The notes beneath the pieces were generated by a model that was not told the DNA's origin, did no database searches, and was given only the letters and a program-made list of their open reading frames with translations. A DNA stretch of 64,000 nt, from sequence record ON528731; one strand, 5' to 3'. Each line of letters opens with the position of its first letter. The stretch's first letter is position 1. This stretch comes from Shigella phage ESh21. Of the stretch, positions 22,408 through 24,187 are shown one piece after another. Made by a program: the position numbers and the translations under genes.

Positions 22408-22539
22408 CTTTGCAGTGACTTATGGAGCTAATATATCGTCCCATGAGTGCCGATGAATCTCTTGAGCATGATTCTAGATTAGCTTACTAAGAGATGACTC
22501 TACAAACCCTTTAGCAAGGTTTGCGTAGGTTACTGCAAA
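22408..22539 (+). ncRNA. Candidate structured RNA bounded by an 8-bp terminal helix
   Basis: CTTTGCAG at 22408 pairs with CTGCAAAG at 22532; internal hairpins; no tRNA fold found. Confidence 0.3.
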
Positions 22540-22550
22540 GATGATTTAAT

Positions 22551-22626
22551 GGAAGTGTAGCAGAATGGTGATGCGGCAGACTTTTAATCTGACAGGCGAT
22601 GGGTTCGAATCCCTCCACTTCTACCA
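22551..22626 (+). tRNA. tRNA-Lys (anticodon UUU)
   Basis: Loop CTTTTAA, acceptor GGAAGTG/CACTTCT; T-stem only 3 bp. Confidence 0.55.
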
Positions 22627-22630
22627 AAAT

Positions 22631-22707
22631 GGTTCAGTCGCAGATAAGGTAATGCAAGGGTCTCATAAGCCCTATGAATGTGGGTTCGATTCCCATCTGA
22701 ACCTCCA
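22631..22707 (+). tRNA. tRNA-Met (anticodon CAU)
   Basis: Acceptor GGTTCAG/CTGAACC perfect, loop CTCATAA, three G-C pairs in anticodon stem. Confidence 0.65.
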
Positions 22708-22709
22708 AT

Positions 22710-22785
22710 GCTGGTATAGTTAAGACGGTTATAACACTCCCCTGATAAGGGAACATCGGTGGTTCGATTCCACCTACCAGTACCA
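22710..22785 (+). tRNA. tRNA-Ile (anticodon GAU)
   Basis: Loop CTGATAA, T-arm GGTGG-TTCGATT-CCACC. Confidence 0.65.
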
Positions 22786-22800
22786 AATTCAATAAAGTTG

Positions 22801-22829
22801 TTGACATTGAGATATAACCACTTTATAGT
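22801..22829 (+). promoter_or_regulatory. Internal sigma70-like promoter within tRNA array
   Basis: TTGACA - 17 bp - TATAGT. Confidence 0.55.
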
Positions 22830-23034
22830 AACCTTAGTTTTCGTTAGCGTAGCGTCTATTTTGCAAACTTAAAAATAAATGCAAACGATAATGTTTTTCT
22901 GGCAGTAGCTTAATAGGCTAAACACCAGTGAGGTCTTCCAAACCCTCATCAAAGAATTTGGCGTACTAGCCCACGGTATGATTAATAAAGTGGGCATCTT
23001 TAAGGGTTTTTTAAGAGAGTCTTTAAAGATTAAT

Positions 23035-23111
23035 GCACCCTTAGTTCAATTGGATAGAGCAACGGTCTTCTAAATCGTTAGTTACAGGTTCGAATCCTGT
23101 AGGGTGTGCCA
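23035..23111 (+). tRNA. tRNA-Arg (anticodon UCU)
   Basis: Loop CTTCTAA, T-arm ACAGG-TTCGAAT-CCTGT, acceptor GCACCCT/AGGGTGT. Confidence 0.65.
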
Positions 23112-23253
23112 ATTAGTTAGCAGATTACTTAGACGACCTTAGCGGGTCTTCCTGTAGGGAGGTGGTCTGTATCTCATGTTTTCCAGAACATGTAAATAAT
23201 CTGAGAAGGGGCTTGACAGTGTTGTGATAATACGGTAAGCTTCGAATTATAGT

Positions 23254-23336
23254 ATGGGACGATGTTAAGACACTAAGGCATGTGCGTAAGCCTCCAAAAC
23301 TTACTCAAAGGGGTTCGATTCCTCCGTCCCATGCCA
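23254..23336 (+). tRNA. tRNA-Trp (anticodon CCA), atypical: ~7 extra nt between acceptor and D-arm
   Basis: Acceptor ATGGGAC/GTCCCAT perfect, loop CTCCAAA; 83 nt. Confidence 0.45.
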
Positions 23337-23349
23337 AAGTCTCATTAGG

Positions 23350-23437
23350 GGTAGGTAGCGGCTAATGGTAGCCAAACTGTCTTGAAAACAGTTGCCACTG
23401 TAGAGATACGGTGAGGGTTCGACTCCTTTACTTACCG
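23350..23437 (+). tRNA. tRNA-Ser (anticodon UGA), long variable arm
   Basis: Anticodon stem ACTGT/ACAGT, loop CTTGAAA; no CCA encoded. Confidence 0.6.
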
Positions 23438-23686
23438 CCTAATAAGATTTAATTCCCGCGCTCGTCGAACAAGCTCGGTTTTTACTCGTGTATTGGCGTA
23501 CACGGCACGACTATAAAGCACCTAGTAGGTGTCACGGAGAAGAGATAGTATCAAGCTCTCCAAAGGTTCTAGTCACCGGATTGAATAAGACTATATAAAG
23601 ACTGTTTAGGTCTTTTTAGAGAGTTTTCAAGGCATAATATACCATTGTTGCTTTGGAGTCTTGGAAGCTCTCTACAAAGATTTAAT

Positions 23687-23764
23687 GGGAGATTGACGGT
23701 AATTGGTAAACCTACCATCCTTAGAAGTTGGTGTTTGAGGGTTCGAATCCCTTGTCTCCCACCA
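23687..23764 (+). tRNA. tRNA with anticodon UAG (Leu by anticodon), short variable arm
   Basis: Loop CTTAGAA; anticodon stem identical to the Val(UAC) tRNA at 24188; acceptor GGGAGAT/GTCTCCC. Confidence 0.5.
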
Positions 23765-23771
23765 AATTAGT

Positions 23772-23847
23772 GCAGGTGTAGCAAAATGGTTATGCGGCTG
23801 ACTCTTAATCAGTAAGATGATGGGTTCAATTCCCTCCACCTGTACCA
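23772..23847 (+). tRNA. tRNA-Lys (anticodon CUU)
   Basis: Loop CTCTTAA; paralog of the Lys(UUU) tRNA at 22551. Confidence 0.6.
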
Positions 23848-23853
23848 AATATC

Positions 23854-23929
23854 GGGGATGTAGTTTACATGGTTAAAACATAAGTTTTGCAAACTTAAGT
23901 ACAGGGTTCAATTCCCTGCTTCTCCACCA
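23854..23929 (+). tRNA. tRNA-Ala (anticodon UGC)
   Basis: Anticodon stem TAAGT/ACTTA, loop TTTGCAA; G3:U70 wobble pair in acceptor stem. Confidence 0.65.
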
Positions 23930-23935
23930 ATTAGT

Positions 23936-24010
23936 GCATCCATAGTTTAAACGGGAAAATTACAGTCTTCCAAACTGAGGTTGAGGGTTCGATTCCCTCT
24001 GGATGCTCCA
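23936..24010 (+). tRNA. tRNA-Gly (anticodon UCC)
   Basis: Acceptor GCATCCA/TGGATGC perfect, loop CTTCCAA. Confidence 0.65.
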
Positions 24011-24016
24011 AATAAT

Positions 24017-24093
24017 GCTGCTTTCGTATAATTGGCTATTACACATCCCTTGTAAGGATGGAGATGCGGGTTCAAGTCCTGTGAGCAGCACCA
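24017..24093 (+). tRNA. tRNA-Thr (anticodon UGU)
   Basis: Anticodon stem CATCC/GGATG, loop CTTGTAA. Confidence 0.65.
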
Positions 24094-24187
24094 ATTTGAG
24101 GTCAAGTGAAAGACCGCTTGAGTCAACTGAAGACCGTAACAAATTCCACGGAGTTGAGTTAGCGGCACAACTTCAGACCTCTTTAAA

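What the first reader, a model, noticed from the sequence alone, without database searches (positions are those of the whole stretch)
22408..24187. Further structured non-tRNA segments inside the tRNA array
22408-22539 is closed by an 8-bp helix (CTTTGCAG/CTGCAAAG) with internal hairpins; 23440-23686 holds a series of short hairpins ending in a terminator-like AAGAC-TGTTTAG-GTCTT-TTT; 24094-24187 has nested inverted repeats (GAGGTC...GACCTC) with two GAAGACCG motifs. None folds as a tRNA. They could be stable small RNAs, as found in the T4 tRNA region.
Basis: seen in the sequence. Interest (0 to 1): 0.45.

Follow-up and report, generated by a model that had tools for sequence, protein, structure and literature searches.

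The report
Conserved non-tRNA RNAs in phage tRNA array
Three stretches between the tRNA genes of a FelixO1-type phage are real, evolutionarily conserved folded RNA elements of unknown function that match no described RNA family, and they sit next to a Ro60-like protein gene and a Y-RNA-like RNA.

Summary
The window is an Ounavirinae (FelixO1/Moogle-type) phage.

- **S1 (22402-22546):** closed by a 22-24 bp helix, not 8 bp. Two deeply diverged alleles keep the helix through compensatory changes (96.7% of cells paired; slid controls at most 46%).
- **S2 (23440-23686):** a composite.
  - A variable hairpin and a small hairpin.
  - A 95.7%-conserved core with no significant fold.
It covaries and is a paralog of S1's frame.
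- **S3 (24098-24181):** an irregular hairpin, 98.4% identical across 13 relatives, like the best-conserved tRNAs.
  - Its flanks are only 73-85% identical.
  - A homolog occurs in a Vequintavirinae phage that lacks the Ro60-like gene.

None matches tRNA or Rfam models. My reading is that these are RNA domains of the tRNA transcripts. S1 and S2b would be leader helices abutting the first tRNA after a spacer. S3 would be a discrete small RNA cut out by tRNA processing. Transcripts and function are untested.

Context: the upstream protein has a Ro60 fold. The adjacent element (22277-22401) is YrlA-like and belongs to an RNA family found beside such genes in distant phages.

The parts
22402..22546 (+). 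S1: about 145-nt structured RNA. It has a long closing helix, a multiloop with a variable 5' domain, a CUA-triloop hairpin and a 3' hairpin.
   Evidence: The fold gives z = -5.17. Covariance model R2 scores 182.6 bits here and 143.5 bits on the FelixO1 allele. Two alleles of equal length (153-158 nt) share only the frame.
22402..22423 (+). S1 closing helix, 5' arm. It pairs with 22525-22546.
   Evidence: 23 pairs, 97.4% of cells paired. Three pairs changed on both sides (CG/UA, CG/UA, CG/GC). One A-U pair is inserted jointly in allele B. Slid controls reach at most 46% paired.
22525..22546 (+). S1 closing helix, 3' arm. It ends 4 nt before the 5' end of tRNA-Lys(UUU) at 22551.
22469..22481 (+). 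S1 internal hairpin UGAUU-CUA-GAUUA. The core AUUCUAGAUU is invariant in both alleles.
   Evidence: Alignment A2 shows the invariant columns. The base of the stem differs between alleles (UG..UA against AA..UU), read directly from the sequences. This hairpin was not counted formally.
22503..22523 (+). S1 3' hairpin CAAACC-CUUUAGCAA-GGUUUG.
   Evidence: helix 2: the pair A-U/G-C changes on both sides in 7 of 14 sequences, in allele B and in an allele A subgroup. The loop UU(U/A)AGCAA is conserved.
23455..23483 (+). S2a: hairpin that varies in sequence, followed in this genome by UUUUU. It is weakly terminator-like here.
   Evidence: The alignment shows at least four unrelated hairpin sequences at this position in relatives. 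The FelixO1-type allele lacks the U run. Identity is 71%.
23487..23504 (+). Small conserved hairpin CGUGUA-UUGGCG-UACACG.
23515..23594 (+). S2 core: a highly conserved block with neither significant structure nor an open reading frame.
   Evidence: It is 95.7% identical across 13 relatives. The fold gives z = -0.45 on + and +0.11 on -. Only + frame 1 stays open across the core; every other frame on either strand has stops. That ORF (GTG 23488, 36 aa) is not conserved: indels that are not multiples of 3 lie just downstream of its start in relatives.
23597..23615 (+). Its 3' strand overlaps the base of S2b.
   Evidence: In one search the stem is kept (A/G changes are wobble-compatible) while the loop varies in sequence and length (AAUA, AGUUA, GUUUA, UUUUUA, AAAUUA). 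The terminator scan did not call it.
23606..23685 (+). S2b: long hairpin with core arms 23611-23632 and 23659-23680 and a conserved apical ACCAUUGUUGCUUUGG at 23641-23656. It ends 1 nt before tRNA-Leu(UAG) at 23687.
   Evidence: The fold gives z = -5.09 on + and -1.43 on -; 22 pairs, 97.7% paired, 2 pairs changed on both sides, 7 changed on one side (wobble-compatible), slid controls at most 62%. The S1 model R2 hits 23599-23686 at 24.5 bits, E = 0.005.
24098..24181 (+). S3: 84-nt irregular hairpin. Pairings are GAGGUC/GACCUC, AAGU/ACUU, CCGC/GCGG, UCAACU/AGUUGA and CCGU/ACGG, with a 5-nt bulge GAAGA and a 10-nt loop.
   Evidence: The fold gives z = -3.35. It is 98.4% identical across 13 relatives, against 85% and 73% for its 4- and 6-nt flanks. 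It is found in 259 phage records. A homolog occurs in the Vequintavirinae phage TH18; 96.8% paired, with one compensatory pair GC/UA.
24122..24144 (+). S3 apical stretch GUCAACUGAAGACCGUAACAAAU. It is invariant in every homolog, including Vequintavirinae.
   Evidence: Alignment A1 shows the invariant columns.
22277..22401 (+). Context: E4, a YrlA-like RNA immediately 5' of S1. Its order is outer stem, V hairpin, T arm, closed acceptor-like hairpin, D arm, outer stem.
   Evidence: 99.3% of cells paired, and three pairs of the acceptor-like hairpin change on both sides among three alleles. Model R3 finds full-length homologs beside distant DUF2828 genes: L010 at 67.8 bits and L024 at 36.9 bits.
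19884..21299 (+). Context: the Ro60-like protein gene (DUF2828 + DUF7788), directly upstream of the tRNA array.
   Evidence: Pfam assignment. AlphaFold2 model with pLDDT 90.2. The ten best PDB matches are all Ro60/TROVE structures, E from 1e-9 to 3e-6. It has the same length and position as Bas63 gp130.

Best explanation
The segments are RNA domains of the polycistronic tRNA transcripts, read on the + strand from the sigma-70-like promoters inside the array. They are of two kinds.

**(1) S1 and S2b: a 'leader helix' family.**
- Both are paralogs. A third, minimal copy lies at 22995-23034, before tRNA-Arg.
- Each has a long near-perfect helix whose conserved base AUCUUU/AAAGAU is followed by U(U)UAAU, and then at once by the 5' end of the first tRNA after a long non-tRNA spacer.
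- Each directly follows an AGACC/GGUCU hairpin: E4, or the mini hairpin at 23597-23615.
- I infer that they act mainly in cis.
  - RNase P cleavage of the downstream tRNA leaves the helix as a 3'-terminal cap, which protects the upstream RNA (for S1, the Y-RNA-like E4) from 3' exonucleases.
  - The helix insulates tRNA folding.
  - At 22-27 bp it is long enough to be an RNase III site.
  - The excised pieces may persist as stable RNAs.

**(2) S3: a separate module.**
- It is bracketed by tRNA-Thr and tRNA-Val with 4- and 6-nt linkers, so tRNA end-processing should release a hairpin RNA of about 90 nt.
- Its tRNA-like level of conservation and its invariant apical 23 nt imply sequence-specific recognition of a conserved partner, probably a host factor.
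- That partner does not need the phage Ro60-like protein.

**What is shown and what is inferred.**
- Shown: conservation, covariation, strand, and position relative to the tRNAs.
- Inferred: transcription, the cleavage events, stability and the partners.
For: **Structure and conservation.**
- Fold z-scores are -5.17 (S1), -5.09 (S2b) and -3.35 (S3).
- Helices are kept across diverged alleles: S1 96.7% paired with 4 compensatory pairs; S2b 97.7% paired with 2 compensatory and 7 wobble-type changes; S3 96.8% paired with 1 compensatory pair.

**Strand.**
- S2b folds at -32.5 kcal/mol on + against -14.7 on -. S1 folds at -50.4 against -40.6.
- Invariant U.G pairs and A-U/G-U exchanges would be C.A mismatches on the other strand.

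**Paralogy of S1 and S2b.** The S1 model R2 hits 23599-23686 with E = 0.005.

**Link to tRNA 5' ends.** The motif AAAGAU(GA)U1-3AAU occurs three times on the + strand of the 64-kb window. Each copy abuts a tRNA 5' end, at 22551, 23035 and 23687.

**The helix is the selected part of S1.** Its interior is replaced wholesale between alleles, while the helix, the length and the ends are kept.

**S3.**
- It is 98.4% identical while its flanks are 73-85% identical.
- Twenty-three consecutive positions are invariant in two phage subfamilies.
- Its homolog in TH18 sits right after tRNA-Gly, in a complete genome with no homolog of the Ro60-like protein (tblastn best E = 3).
- It is absent from Erwinia phage M7, where tRNA-Thr and tRNA-Val are 6 nt apart.

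**Not coding.** No conserved ORF covers any segment.

**Transcription context.** Promoter-like sites on + lie at 21409-21438 and 22801-22829, each matching 11 of 12 consensus positions.
Against: - There is no expression or end-mapping data, so discrete stable RNAs are an inference.
- Covariation for S3 rests on one compensatory pair. The sequence hardly varies, and the MFE fold of the TH18 homolog differs from the consensus (z = -1.6).
- RNase III cleavage, the cap function and the insulation function are untested.
- S1's two conserved internal hairpins hint at more than a generic helix.
- The S2 core (23515-23594) is strongly conserved yet unstructured. This account does not explain it.
- Promoter-like sites are no more frequent than in shuffled sequence.
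Confidence: 0.55

Rival explanations
1. S1, S2b and/or S3 are additional Y-RNA-like partners of the phage Ro60-like protein. On this view they bind it as Y RNAs bind Ro60, and they take part in its reported anti-defence role.
For: - The upstream protein has a Ro60 fold.
- A preprint reports that its Bas63 ortholog, gp130, counters the ppl defence system and speculates that some genes of the array are Y RNAs (bioRxiv 10.1101/2024.10.10.617714, read).
- E4, directly 5' of S1, is YrlA-like.
- The E-type RNA family accompanies DUF2828 genes in distant phages.
- All three segments have a stem formed by their 5' and 3' ends.
- By eye, S1's 3' hairpin (AGACC-type stem plus a UUUAGCAA loop) and S3's GAAGACCGU resemble the E-type frame ACAGAAGACCGU-UUACAGCAA.
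- Erwinia phage M7 has no match to S1 or S3, and hit counts suggest its genus also lacks the protein.
Against: - The E-family model R3, run with filters off over 22402-24200, gives no meaningful score on S1, S2b or S3 (at most 6.6 bits).
- Rfam YrlA does not hit them.
- The Ro-binding motifs described for Y RNAs (GGUCCGA; GNCGAAN0-1G, PMC4201824) are absent.
- S3 occurs in TH18, which has neither the Ro60-like gene nor E-type elements.
- S1 and E4 alleles recombine independently. NBSal004 and JLBYU32 combine a Felix-type E4 with an A-type S1.
- R1 and R2 find nothing beside distant DUF2828 genes.
Confidence: 0.2
2. The segments are purely spacer-level features without a function of their own. 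They would be relics of decayed tRNA genes, duplicated leaders and scars of homing-endonuclease traffic, conserved only by linkage to the tRNAs.
For: - HNH endonuclease genes are inserted at tRNA/spacer junctions in relatives: Michonne between S2b and tRNA-Leu, wV8 upstream of S2, and FelixO1 between tRNA-Gly and tRNA-Thr.
- The array contains degenerate tRNA-like pieces (22900-22960, 23255-23338).
- S2a is hypervariable.
Against: - Linkage cannot explain S3 being more conserved than its flanking tRNAs (98.4% against Thr 87% and Val 91%) or than its own 4-6 nt flanks.
- It cannot explain helix-preserving double substitutions and a joint base-pair insertion in S1 and S2b.
- No tRNA model scores in the segments.
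Confidence: 0.1
3. The hairpins act at the level of transcription, as intrinsic terminators or attenuators that partition the array into transcription units.
For: - In this genome S2a is a hairpin followed by UUUUU (23455-23483).
- The mini hairpin at 23597-23615 is followed by U residues.
- Its 3' strand is shared with the base of S2b, which gives two mutually exclusive folds.
Against: - The terminator scan calls none of them.
- The U run after S2a is not conserved in FelixO1-type alleles.
- The U run after the mini hairpin is itself paired within S2b.
- S1 and S3 have no U tract.
- tRNAs continue directly downstream without a new promoter at S1 and S3.
Confidence: 0.08
4. The conserved sequences work as double-stranded DNA sites, for example as targets of homing endonucleases, as recombination sites or as protein-binding sites. 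This applies chiefly to S3 and the S2 core.
For: - S3 folds equally well on both strands (-30.0 and -30.1 kcal/mol).
- The S2 core is conserved without RNA structure.
- Homing endonuclease genes populate the array in relatives.
Against: - In S3 the substitutions seen are G.U-compatible only on the + strand: A to G opposite U in Michonne-type and SUSP-type sequences.
- The closing helix of S3 covaries in TH18.
- No endonuclease gene lies beside S3 in most genomes.
- For the S2 core this explanation is not excluded.
Confidence: 0.07

Closest known systems
Small stable RNAs of the phage T4 tRNA region (species 1 / RNA C and species 2 / RNA D)
   Same: - They are non-tRNA RNAs encoded inside a phage tRNA cluster on the tRNA strand.
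- They are expected to be released by the same processing that matures the tRNAs.
- They are of the order of 100-150 nt and of unknown function.
- From memory, not checked here: species 1 was reported as an RNase III substrate, which parallels the long helices of S1 and S2b.
   Different: - No sequence or model of the T4 RNAs was available to compare, so homology is untested.
- The phage lineage is different (Ounavirinae against Tevenvirinae).
- The elements here sit between tRNAs rather than at the end of the cluster.
- S1 and S2b abut tRNA 5' ends.
Bacterial and phage Y RNAs of the YrlA type with Ro60/Rsr (Chen et al. 2014, PMC4201824; Rfam RF02553)
   Same: - They are encoded near a Ro60-fold protein.
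- The terminal stem is formed by the 5' and 3' ends.
- The neighbouring E4 has the YrlA order V-T-AS-D.
   Different: - S1, S2b and S3 lack the T and D arms, lack the described Ro-binding motifs and do not score with the YrlA model or with my E-family model.
- S3 also exists in a phage without the protein.
Large structured RNAs embedded in phage tRNA arrays (GOLLD, RF02032)
   Same: - It is a structured non-coding RNA located within a phage tRNA array.
- A GOLLD RNA (203.5 bits) sits in the tRNA array next to a DUF2828 gene in locus L010.
   Different: - GOLLD is several hundred nt long and has its own conserved architecture.
- It has no sequence or model similarity to S1-S3.
RNase III processing stems (rRNA operon stems, phage T7 R sites)
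   Same: - They are near-perfect helices of 20 bp or more.
- The pairing is conserved rather than the sequence.
- They lie between functional RNAs of one transcript.
   Different: - Cleavage is untested here.
- The base of the S1 and S2b helix is sequence-conserved.
- S1 has conserved internal hairpins.

Membership tests
tRNA | Cloverleaf recognised by ARAGORN or the Rfam tRNA model (RF00005) | tested here: not met
   No call falls inside 22402-22546, 23440-23686 or 24094-24187.
Any Rfam 15 family | Score at or near the family's gathering threshold | tested here: not met
   The only matches are chance-level miRNA-precursor hits to the S2b hairpin (at most 20.6 bits against thresholds of 70-118) and a 9.9-bit snoRNA fragment in S3. 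S1 gives only a 14.8-bit miRNA-precursor fragment at 22457-22495, against a threshold of 70.
Y RNA (YrlA type) | Encoded close to a Ro60/TROVE protein gene | tested here: met
   The gene 19884-21299 has a Ro60 fold. The segments lie 1.1-2.9 kb downstream on the same strand.
Y RNA (YrlA type) | tRNA-like module with T arm, closed acceptor-like stem and D arm | tested here: not met
   It is absent from S1, S2b and S3 (R3 with filters off). It is present in the neighbouring E4.
Y RNA (YrlA type) | Ro-binding motif near the 5' end (GNCGAAN0-1G in bacteria, GGUCCGA in vertebrates; PMC4201824) | tested here: not met
   Neither motif is present in the three sequences, by direct reading.
Y RNA (YrlA type) | Match to Rfam RF02553 | tested here: not met
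   The only YrlA hit in the array is 21.6 bits at 25133-25256, across tRNA-His and tRNA-Phe. The lax scans of the segments find nothing.
Y RNA (YrlA type) | Physical binding to the Ro60-like protein | not testable with these tools
   This needs RIP/CLIP or EMSA.
E-type RNA family of this array (model R3: AG-stem-UU(A/C)CAGCAA ... stem-CUG(G/U)U) | Score with covariance model R3 | tested here: not met
   With filters off over 22402-24200, S2b scores 6.6 bits, S3 scores 5 bits and the S1 hairpin gets no hit. E1, E2 and E4 score 35-139 bits, and distant loci score up to 67.8 bits.
Rho-independent terminator | G+C-rich stem followed by an unpaired U tract, conserved among relatives | tested here: not met
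   The terminator scan did not call any of them. The U run after S2a is missing in FelixO1-type alleles, and the U run after the mini hairpin is part of the S2b helix.
RNase III substrate | About two turns (20 bp or more) of near-perfect double-stranded RNA | tested here: met
   S1 has 22-24 bp. S2b has 22-27 bp. S3 does not qualify, because its helices are short and interrupted.
RNase III substrate | Cleavage by RNase III | not testable with these tools
   This needs in vitro cleavage, or a comparison of rnc mutant and wild-type hosts.
T4-type tRNA-cluster stable RNAs | Non-tRNA RNA gene inside a phage tRNA cluster on the tRNA strand | tested here: met
T4-type tRNA-cluster stable RNAs | Accumulation as a discrete stable RNA; homology to T4 species 1 or 2 | not testable with these tools
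   No expression data and no T4 reference model were available. The megablast of the array and the blastn searches of the three segments against the phage collection returned no T4-type records among those listed.
Miniature inverted-repeat mobile element | Terminal inverted repeats plus multiple dispersed copies and target-site duplication | tested here: not met
   R2 finds one full copy and one partial paralog in the window, both in the array. Every relative carries S1 at the same site with the same length.

The most novel reading that the evidence does not exclude
The tRNA array of FelixO1-type phages would be a multi-RNA partner locus for the phage Ro60-like anti-defence protein.

- Besides the E-type Y-like RNAs (E1-E4), the S1 domain would be a further cognate or effector-recruiting RNA of that ribonucleoprotein. 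S1 is fused to the YrlA-like E4 and carries an AGACC/GGUCU-UUUAGCAA hairpin. S2b would play a similar part.
- S3 would be an independent, horizontally mobile decoy or regulator RNA aimed at a conserved host factor, for example an RNA-targeting defence or RNA-processing enzyme.
Probability: 0.15. Interest if true: 0.8.

Novelty: new member of a known kind. Interest (0 to 1): 0.55.

Why it matters
Phage tRNA arrays are usually annotated as tRNAs plus spacers. Here at least three spacer elements are under clear selection as RNA.

- **S3** is conserved like a tRNA and is shared by two phage subfamilies. That gives a concrete, small, testable candidate for a phage RNA that engages a host component.
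- **S1 and S2b** define a recurrent leader-helix module at the start of tRNA sub-clusters. It could explain how mixed operons of tRNAs and Y-like RNAs are processed.
- **The surrounding context** turns a published speculation into specific coordinates that can be tested by RIP, deletion and anti-defence assays. The speculation was that some 'tRNA genes' next to Bas63 gp130 are Y RNAs. The context here comprises:
  - a protein with a Ro60 fold;
  - a YrlA-like RNA with covariation;
  - an E-type RNA family that follows DUF2828 genes into distant phages.

Tried and rejected
- **Rfam.** Scans at lax thresholds over the array and over each segment gave nothing beyond tRNAs and chance hits.
- **Rfam YrlA.** It recognises neither the segments nor E4.
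- **Models R1 (S3) and R2 (S1) against distant loci.** I searched 52 loci that encode distant DUF2828 proteins, plus Erwinia phage M7. There were no homologs.
- **E-family model R3 on the segments, filters off.** No membership.
- **S3 against 5,426 complete E. coli genomes (blastn).** No match.
- **S3 core 20-mer in 185,579 bacterial and archaeal genomes.** There were 7 exact hits in unrelated MAGs.
  - R1 scores them at 20 bits or less.
  - GAAGACCGTAACAAA reads E-D-R-N-K in frame.
  - I therefore take them as coding or chance matches.
- **16-mer scan of viral contigs.** It returned Ounavirinae, one Vequintavirinae-like contig, and coding coincidences.
- **Coding potential.** No conserved ORF covers any segment. 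The small CDSs annotated there in some relatives differ in frame and extent.
- **A by-eye similarity** between the window's 75-aa ORF (24615-24842) and a TH18 ORF was not supported by tblastn.
- **Promoter in the S2 core.** Only a weak match (TAGTCA-16-TATATA), not called by the scan.
- **Literature.** No transcriptome or small-RNA study of Felixounavirus was found. Searching for DUF2828 found nothing relevant. No supplementary files of Chen et al. 2014 were held.
- **Sequence search of the protein against PDB.** It found nothing. Only the fold comparison showed the Ro60 relationship.

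
Full report
**Where this is.**
- The window is an Ounavirinae phage. The 5.1-kb array region matches 300 phage records, mostly Felixounavirus, Mooglevirus and Suspvirus, at 80-95% identity.
- S2 and the Gly-Leu block are 100% identical to Shigella phage ESh22.
- ARAGORN finds 25 tRNAs on the + strand between 21465 and 26200. Rfam adds tRNA-Glu at 21549-21620.
- The three segments fill three gaps: Asp to Lys(UUU), Ser(UGA) to Leu(UAG), and Thr to Val. The same gaps, with similar lengths, exist in annotated relatives and carry no annotation there.

**The observation.**
- All three regions fold better than dinucleotide shuffles: S1 z = -5.17, S2 z = -2.97, S3 z = -3.35.
That hairpin gives z = -5.09 on + but only -1.43 on -.
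- In S3 the GAGGTC/GACCTC helix is right, but only one exact GAAGACCG is present.
- No tRNA or other Rfam family matches any segment, even in short, lax scans.

**S1.**
- BLAST finds the window's S1 in only 59 records. The other relatives carry, at the same place and with the same length (153-158 nt), a second allele whose interior is unrelated.
- Both alleles share several features:
  - the 5' junction GGUCUGGU-AAU;
  - the long helix;
  - an AUUCUAGAUU hairpin;
  - a 3' hairpin, CA(A/G)ACC-loop-GGU(U/C)UG;
  - the 3' end CAAAGAU(G/A)AUUUAAU, which abuts tRNA-Lys.
- I counted 29 pairs on 14 distinct sequences.
  - 96.7% of cells are paired, against 27-46% when the partners are slid by 1-3 columns.
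  - Four pairs change on both sides (CG/UA twice, CG/GC, AU/GC).
  - One A-U pair is present in allele B and absent, on both sides, in allele A.
- Invariant U.G pairs, A-U/G-U exchanges and the better + strand energy (-50.4 against -40.6 kcal/mol) assign the RNA to the tRNA strand.

**S2.** The alignment of 20 distinct Ser-Leu gaps shows five parts.
- (i) 23455-23483: a hairpin whose sequence differs completely among at least four alleles. Only some alleles, including this genome, have a U run after it.
- (ii) 23487-23504: a small conserved hairpin.
- (iii) 23515-23594: a core that is 95.7% identical across 13 relatives. It has no significant fold on either strand (z = -0.45 and +0.11) and no conserved reading frame. 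I cannot explain this block.
- (iv) 23597-23615: the mini hairpin AAAGAC(Y)-loop-GGUCUUU, with a conserved stem and a loop that varies in sequence and length.
- (v) S2b, which has three alleles.
  - On 22 pairs, 97.7% of cells are paired, against 40-62% for slid controls.
  - Two pairs change on both sides and seven change on one side in a wobble-compatible way.

The S1 model R2 hits 23599-23686 with E = 0.005. The two elements share the ends GGUCU...UCUUU.AG / CU.(A/C)AAAGAU..UUUAAU-tRNA. A third, minimal copy (AUCUUUAA...UUUAAAGAU-UAAU) precedes tRNA-Arg(UCU). The motif AAAGAU(GA)U1-3AAU occurs three times on the + strand of the whole window, and each copy ends exactly at a tRNA 5' end. In Michonne an HNH endonuclease gene sits between S2b and tRNA-Leu, so these junctions also take up insertions.

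**S3.**
- The 84-nt element is 98.4% identical across 13 relatives of three genera. That level matches tRNA-Lys, tRNA-Gly and tRNA-Met.
- The flanking tRNA-Thr and tRNA-Val are only 87% and 91% identical. The 4- and 6-nt linkers are 85% and 73% identical.
- 249 of 259 matching records are 95-99% identical.
- Six records at 80-90% identity include Vequintavirinae phages (TH18 and 24-2-1; also IMG/VR contig L101). There the homolog follows tRNA-Gly(UCC).
  - In these phages the closing helix reads GAUGUC/GACAUC instead of GAGGUC/GACCUC, a compensatory change.
  - CCGU/ACGG becomes CCGU/AUGG.
  - 23 consecutive apical positions (24122-24144) stay identical.
- Within Ounavirinae, the two helix substitutions that recur across relatives are A to G opposite U, which is tolerated only in + strand RNA. 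Single genomes (wV8, JLBYU32/L097) carry one helix mismatch each.
- Covariation support is thin because the sequence barely varies. The MFE fold of the TH18 copy departs from the consensus.
- The complete TH18 genome has no homolog of the Ro60-like protein (tblastn best E = 3) and no E-type element. S3 therefore does not depend on that protein.
- Erwinia phage M7 (Kolesnikvirus) lacks S3: its tRNA-Thr and tRNA-Val are 6 nt apart. R1 and R2 find nothing there.
- S3 has no match in E. coli genomes. Exact 20-mer hits in seven unrelated MAGs do not fit the S3 model.

**Context that bears on mechanism.**
- *The protein.*
  - The gene directly upstream of the array (19884-21299; Pfam DUF2828 + DUF7788) gives a confident AlphaFold2 model (pLDDT 90.2, pTM 0.89).
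  - Its ten best PDB matches are all Ro60/TROVE proteins: Xenopus, human, Deinococcus Rsr and Thermus phage phiLo. They align over the full length, with E from 1e-9 to 3e-6.
  - It has the position and length of Bas63 gp130.
  - A preprint reports gp130 as structurally Ro60-like and as a counter of the ppl defence system. The authors suggest that some array genes might be Y RNAs.
  - Homologs in mycobacteriophages are annotated as Ro-like.
- *E4.* Immediately 5' of S1 lies E4 (22277-22401). Its order is an outer stem AGACCGU/AUGGUCU, a V hairpin, a T arm, a closed acceptor-like hairpin and a D arm. This is the order described for YrlA.
  - On 12 sequences, 99.3% of cells are paired.
  - The acceptor-like hairpin has three alleles with compensatory changes at three pairs.
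- *The E family.*
  - E1-E3 share the frame ACAGAAGACCNN...NNGGUCUGGU, and the NN positions covary (sequences).
  - Model R3, built from E4, finds full-length homologs with T and D arms beside distant DUF2828 genes: L010 at 67.8 bits and L024 at 36.9 bits.
  - It also finds short stem-only versions in at least ten further loci. All lie on the gene's strand, and several lie just upstream of the gene.
  - The stems covary, and UU(A/C)CAGCAA and CUG(G/U)U are conserved.
  - This E family is therefore the likely cognate RNA of the Ro60-like protein.
- *The segments are not E-family members.* R3 does not recognise S1, S2b or S3, even with filters off. The AGACC/GGUCU-type stems in S1's 3' hairpin, in the mini hairpin and in S3's GAAGACCGU remain a by-eye resemblance.

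**How it most likely works.** The following is inference from anatomy.
- E1, E2, S3 and the Y-like RNA of L010 are each bracketed by tRNAs with linkers of 4-10 nt. RNase P on the downstream tRNA and 3' maturation of the upstream tRNA should excise them as discrete RNAs.
- S3's invariance then calls for a sequence-specific partner that is itself conserved. Its presence in TH18 argues for a host factor or a factor common to both phages.
- For S1 and S2b, what is conserved is the long helix, its sequence-conserved base and its fixed distance to the tRNA 5' end. S1's interior, by contrast, is replaceable. That pattern fits a cis-acting leader helix.
  - After RNase P cleavage the helix would cap the 3' end of the upstream RNA. 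For S1 that RNA is the E3-E4 unit, which has no tRNA directly downstream of it.
  - The helix would keep spacer RNA from interfering with tRNA folding.
  - It offers two turns of duplex to RNase III.
- S1's two conserved internal hairpins leave room for an additional function.

**Rivals.** In order of weight, they are:
1. S1, S2b or S3 as further Ro60-partner RNAs;
2. functionless relics;
3. terminators or attenuators;
4. DNA-level sites.

Evidence for and against each is given in the rival entries. The DNA-level reading is not excluded for the S2 core.

**Comparison and novelty.**
- The closest known kind is the set of non-tRNA stable RNAs of phage tRNA clusters (T4 species 1 and 2). More broadly, it is structured RNAs embedded in phage tRNA arrays, such as GOLLD, one of which I found next to a DUF2828 gene in L010.
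- I found no family to which S1, S2b or S3 belong. They are new members of that known kind.
- They are restricted, as far as searched, to Ounavirinae, plus an Avunavirus-like group for S3.

**Verdict.**
It is wrong in detail for S2.
- The small-RNA interpretation is partly supported: structural conservation is shown, while transcripts and function are untested.

Noticed in passing
window 22277-22401 (+): E4 is a YrlA-like RNA. It has an outer stem, a V hairpin, a T arm (22332-22348), a closed acceptor-like hairpin (22349-22364) and a D arm. Three alleles in relatives keep the acceptor-like stem through compensatory changes. Neither Rfam YrlA nor ARAGORN recognises it.
   Followed up: yes
window 21630-21698, 21791-21856, 22191-22264 (+); loci L010 3044-3166, L024 2639-2762, L019 894-958, L030 5930-5994, L015 5871-5934 and others: An RNA family with the frame AG-stem-UU(A/C)CAGCAA ... 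stem-CUG(G/U)U accompanies DUF2828 (Ro60-fold) genes in phages whose protein is only about 40% identical. Every copy lies on the gene's strand. Some copies carry a tRNA-like insert and some are short hairpins just upstream of the gene. This is a likely cognate Y-RNA family that Rfam does not hold.
   Followed up: partly
window 19884-21299 (+): The DUF2828/DUF7788 protein has a Ro60 (TROVE + vWA) fold by AlphaFold2 and Foldseek. It is the ortholog of Bas63 gp130, which a preprint reports as a counter of the ppl defence system. The ORF list starts it at GTG 19815, but homologs are 471 aa long, which suggests a start at 19884.
   Followed up: yes
window 22995-23034 (+): A third, minimal leader hairpin (AUCUUUAA...UUUAAAGAU-UAAU) lies directly before tRNA-Arg(UCU). 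The motif AAAGAU(GA)U1-3AAU occurs on the + strand only at the three tRNA 5' ends 22551, 23035 and 23687.
   Followed up: partly
window 23515-23594: An 80-nt block is 95.7% identical across relatives. It has no significant RNA fold on either strand, no conserved ORF and no convincing promoter. It remains unexplained.
   Followed up: partly
window 23255-23338 and 22900-22960 (+): These are tRNA-like sequences missed by ARAGORN and Rfam. The first has acceptor and T arms and a possible CCA anticodon, downstream of a promoter-like TTGACA at about 23214. Relatives annotate a pseudo-tRNA near here. The second looks like a decayed tRNA without a T arm.
   Followed up: no
L072 (Erwinia phage M7) 2511-2692: A 182-nt spacer between tRNA-Ala and tRNA-Met has a closing helix of about 30 bp that contains AUGGUCUGGU (-57.4 kcal/mol). 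Its architecture resembles S1, but model R2 does not detect it.
   Followed up: no
L010 1989-2452; L039 12918-13293: A GOLLD RNA (203.5 bits) lies inside the tRNA array next to a DUF2828 gene of a 364-kb phage contig, and another such locus holds a tmRNA gene. Same-strand tRNAs lie within the fetched flanks of the DUF2828 gene in nine of the eleven distant loci scanned; dense arrays occur in four of them.
   Followed up: no
L063 2299-2751 (Michonne), L068 2793-3197 (wV8), L060 3090-3503 (FelixO1): HNH or endonuclease VII-type genes are inserted at junctions between tRNAs and spacers of the array in some relatives. One sits exactly between S2b and tRNA-Leu.
   Followed up: no
L085 (IMG/VR contig 3300045988_004299) against the window: The contig whose DUF2828 protein is 100% identical to the window's carries different S1, S2 and S3 alleles. 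The window's alleles match contig 3300045988_001525 and phage ESh22 instead. The array is therefore mosaic among co-occurring phages, and E4 and S1 alleles recombine independently.
   Followed up: partly
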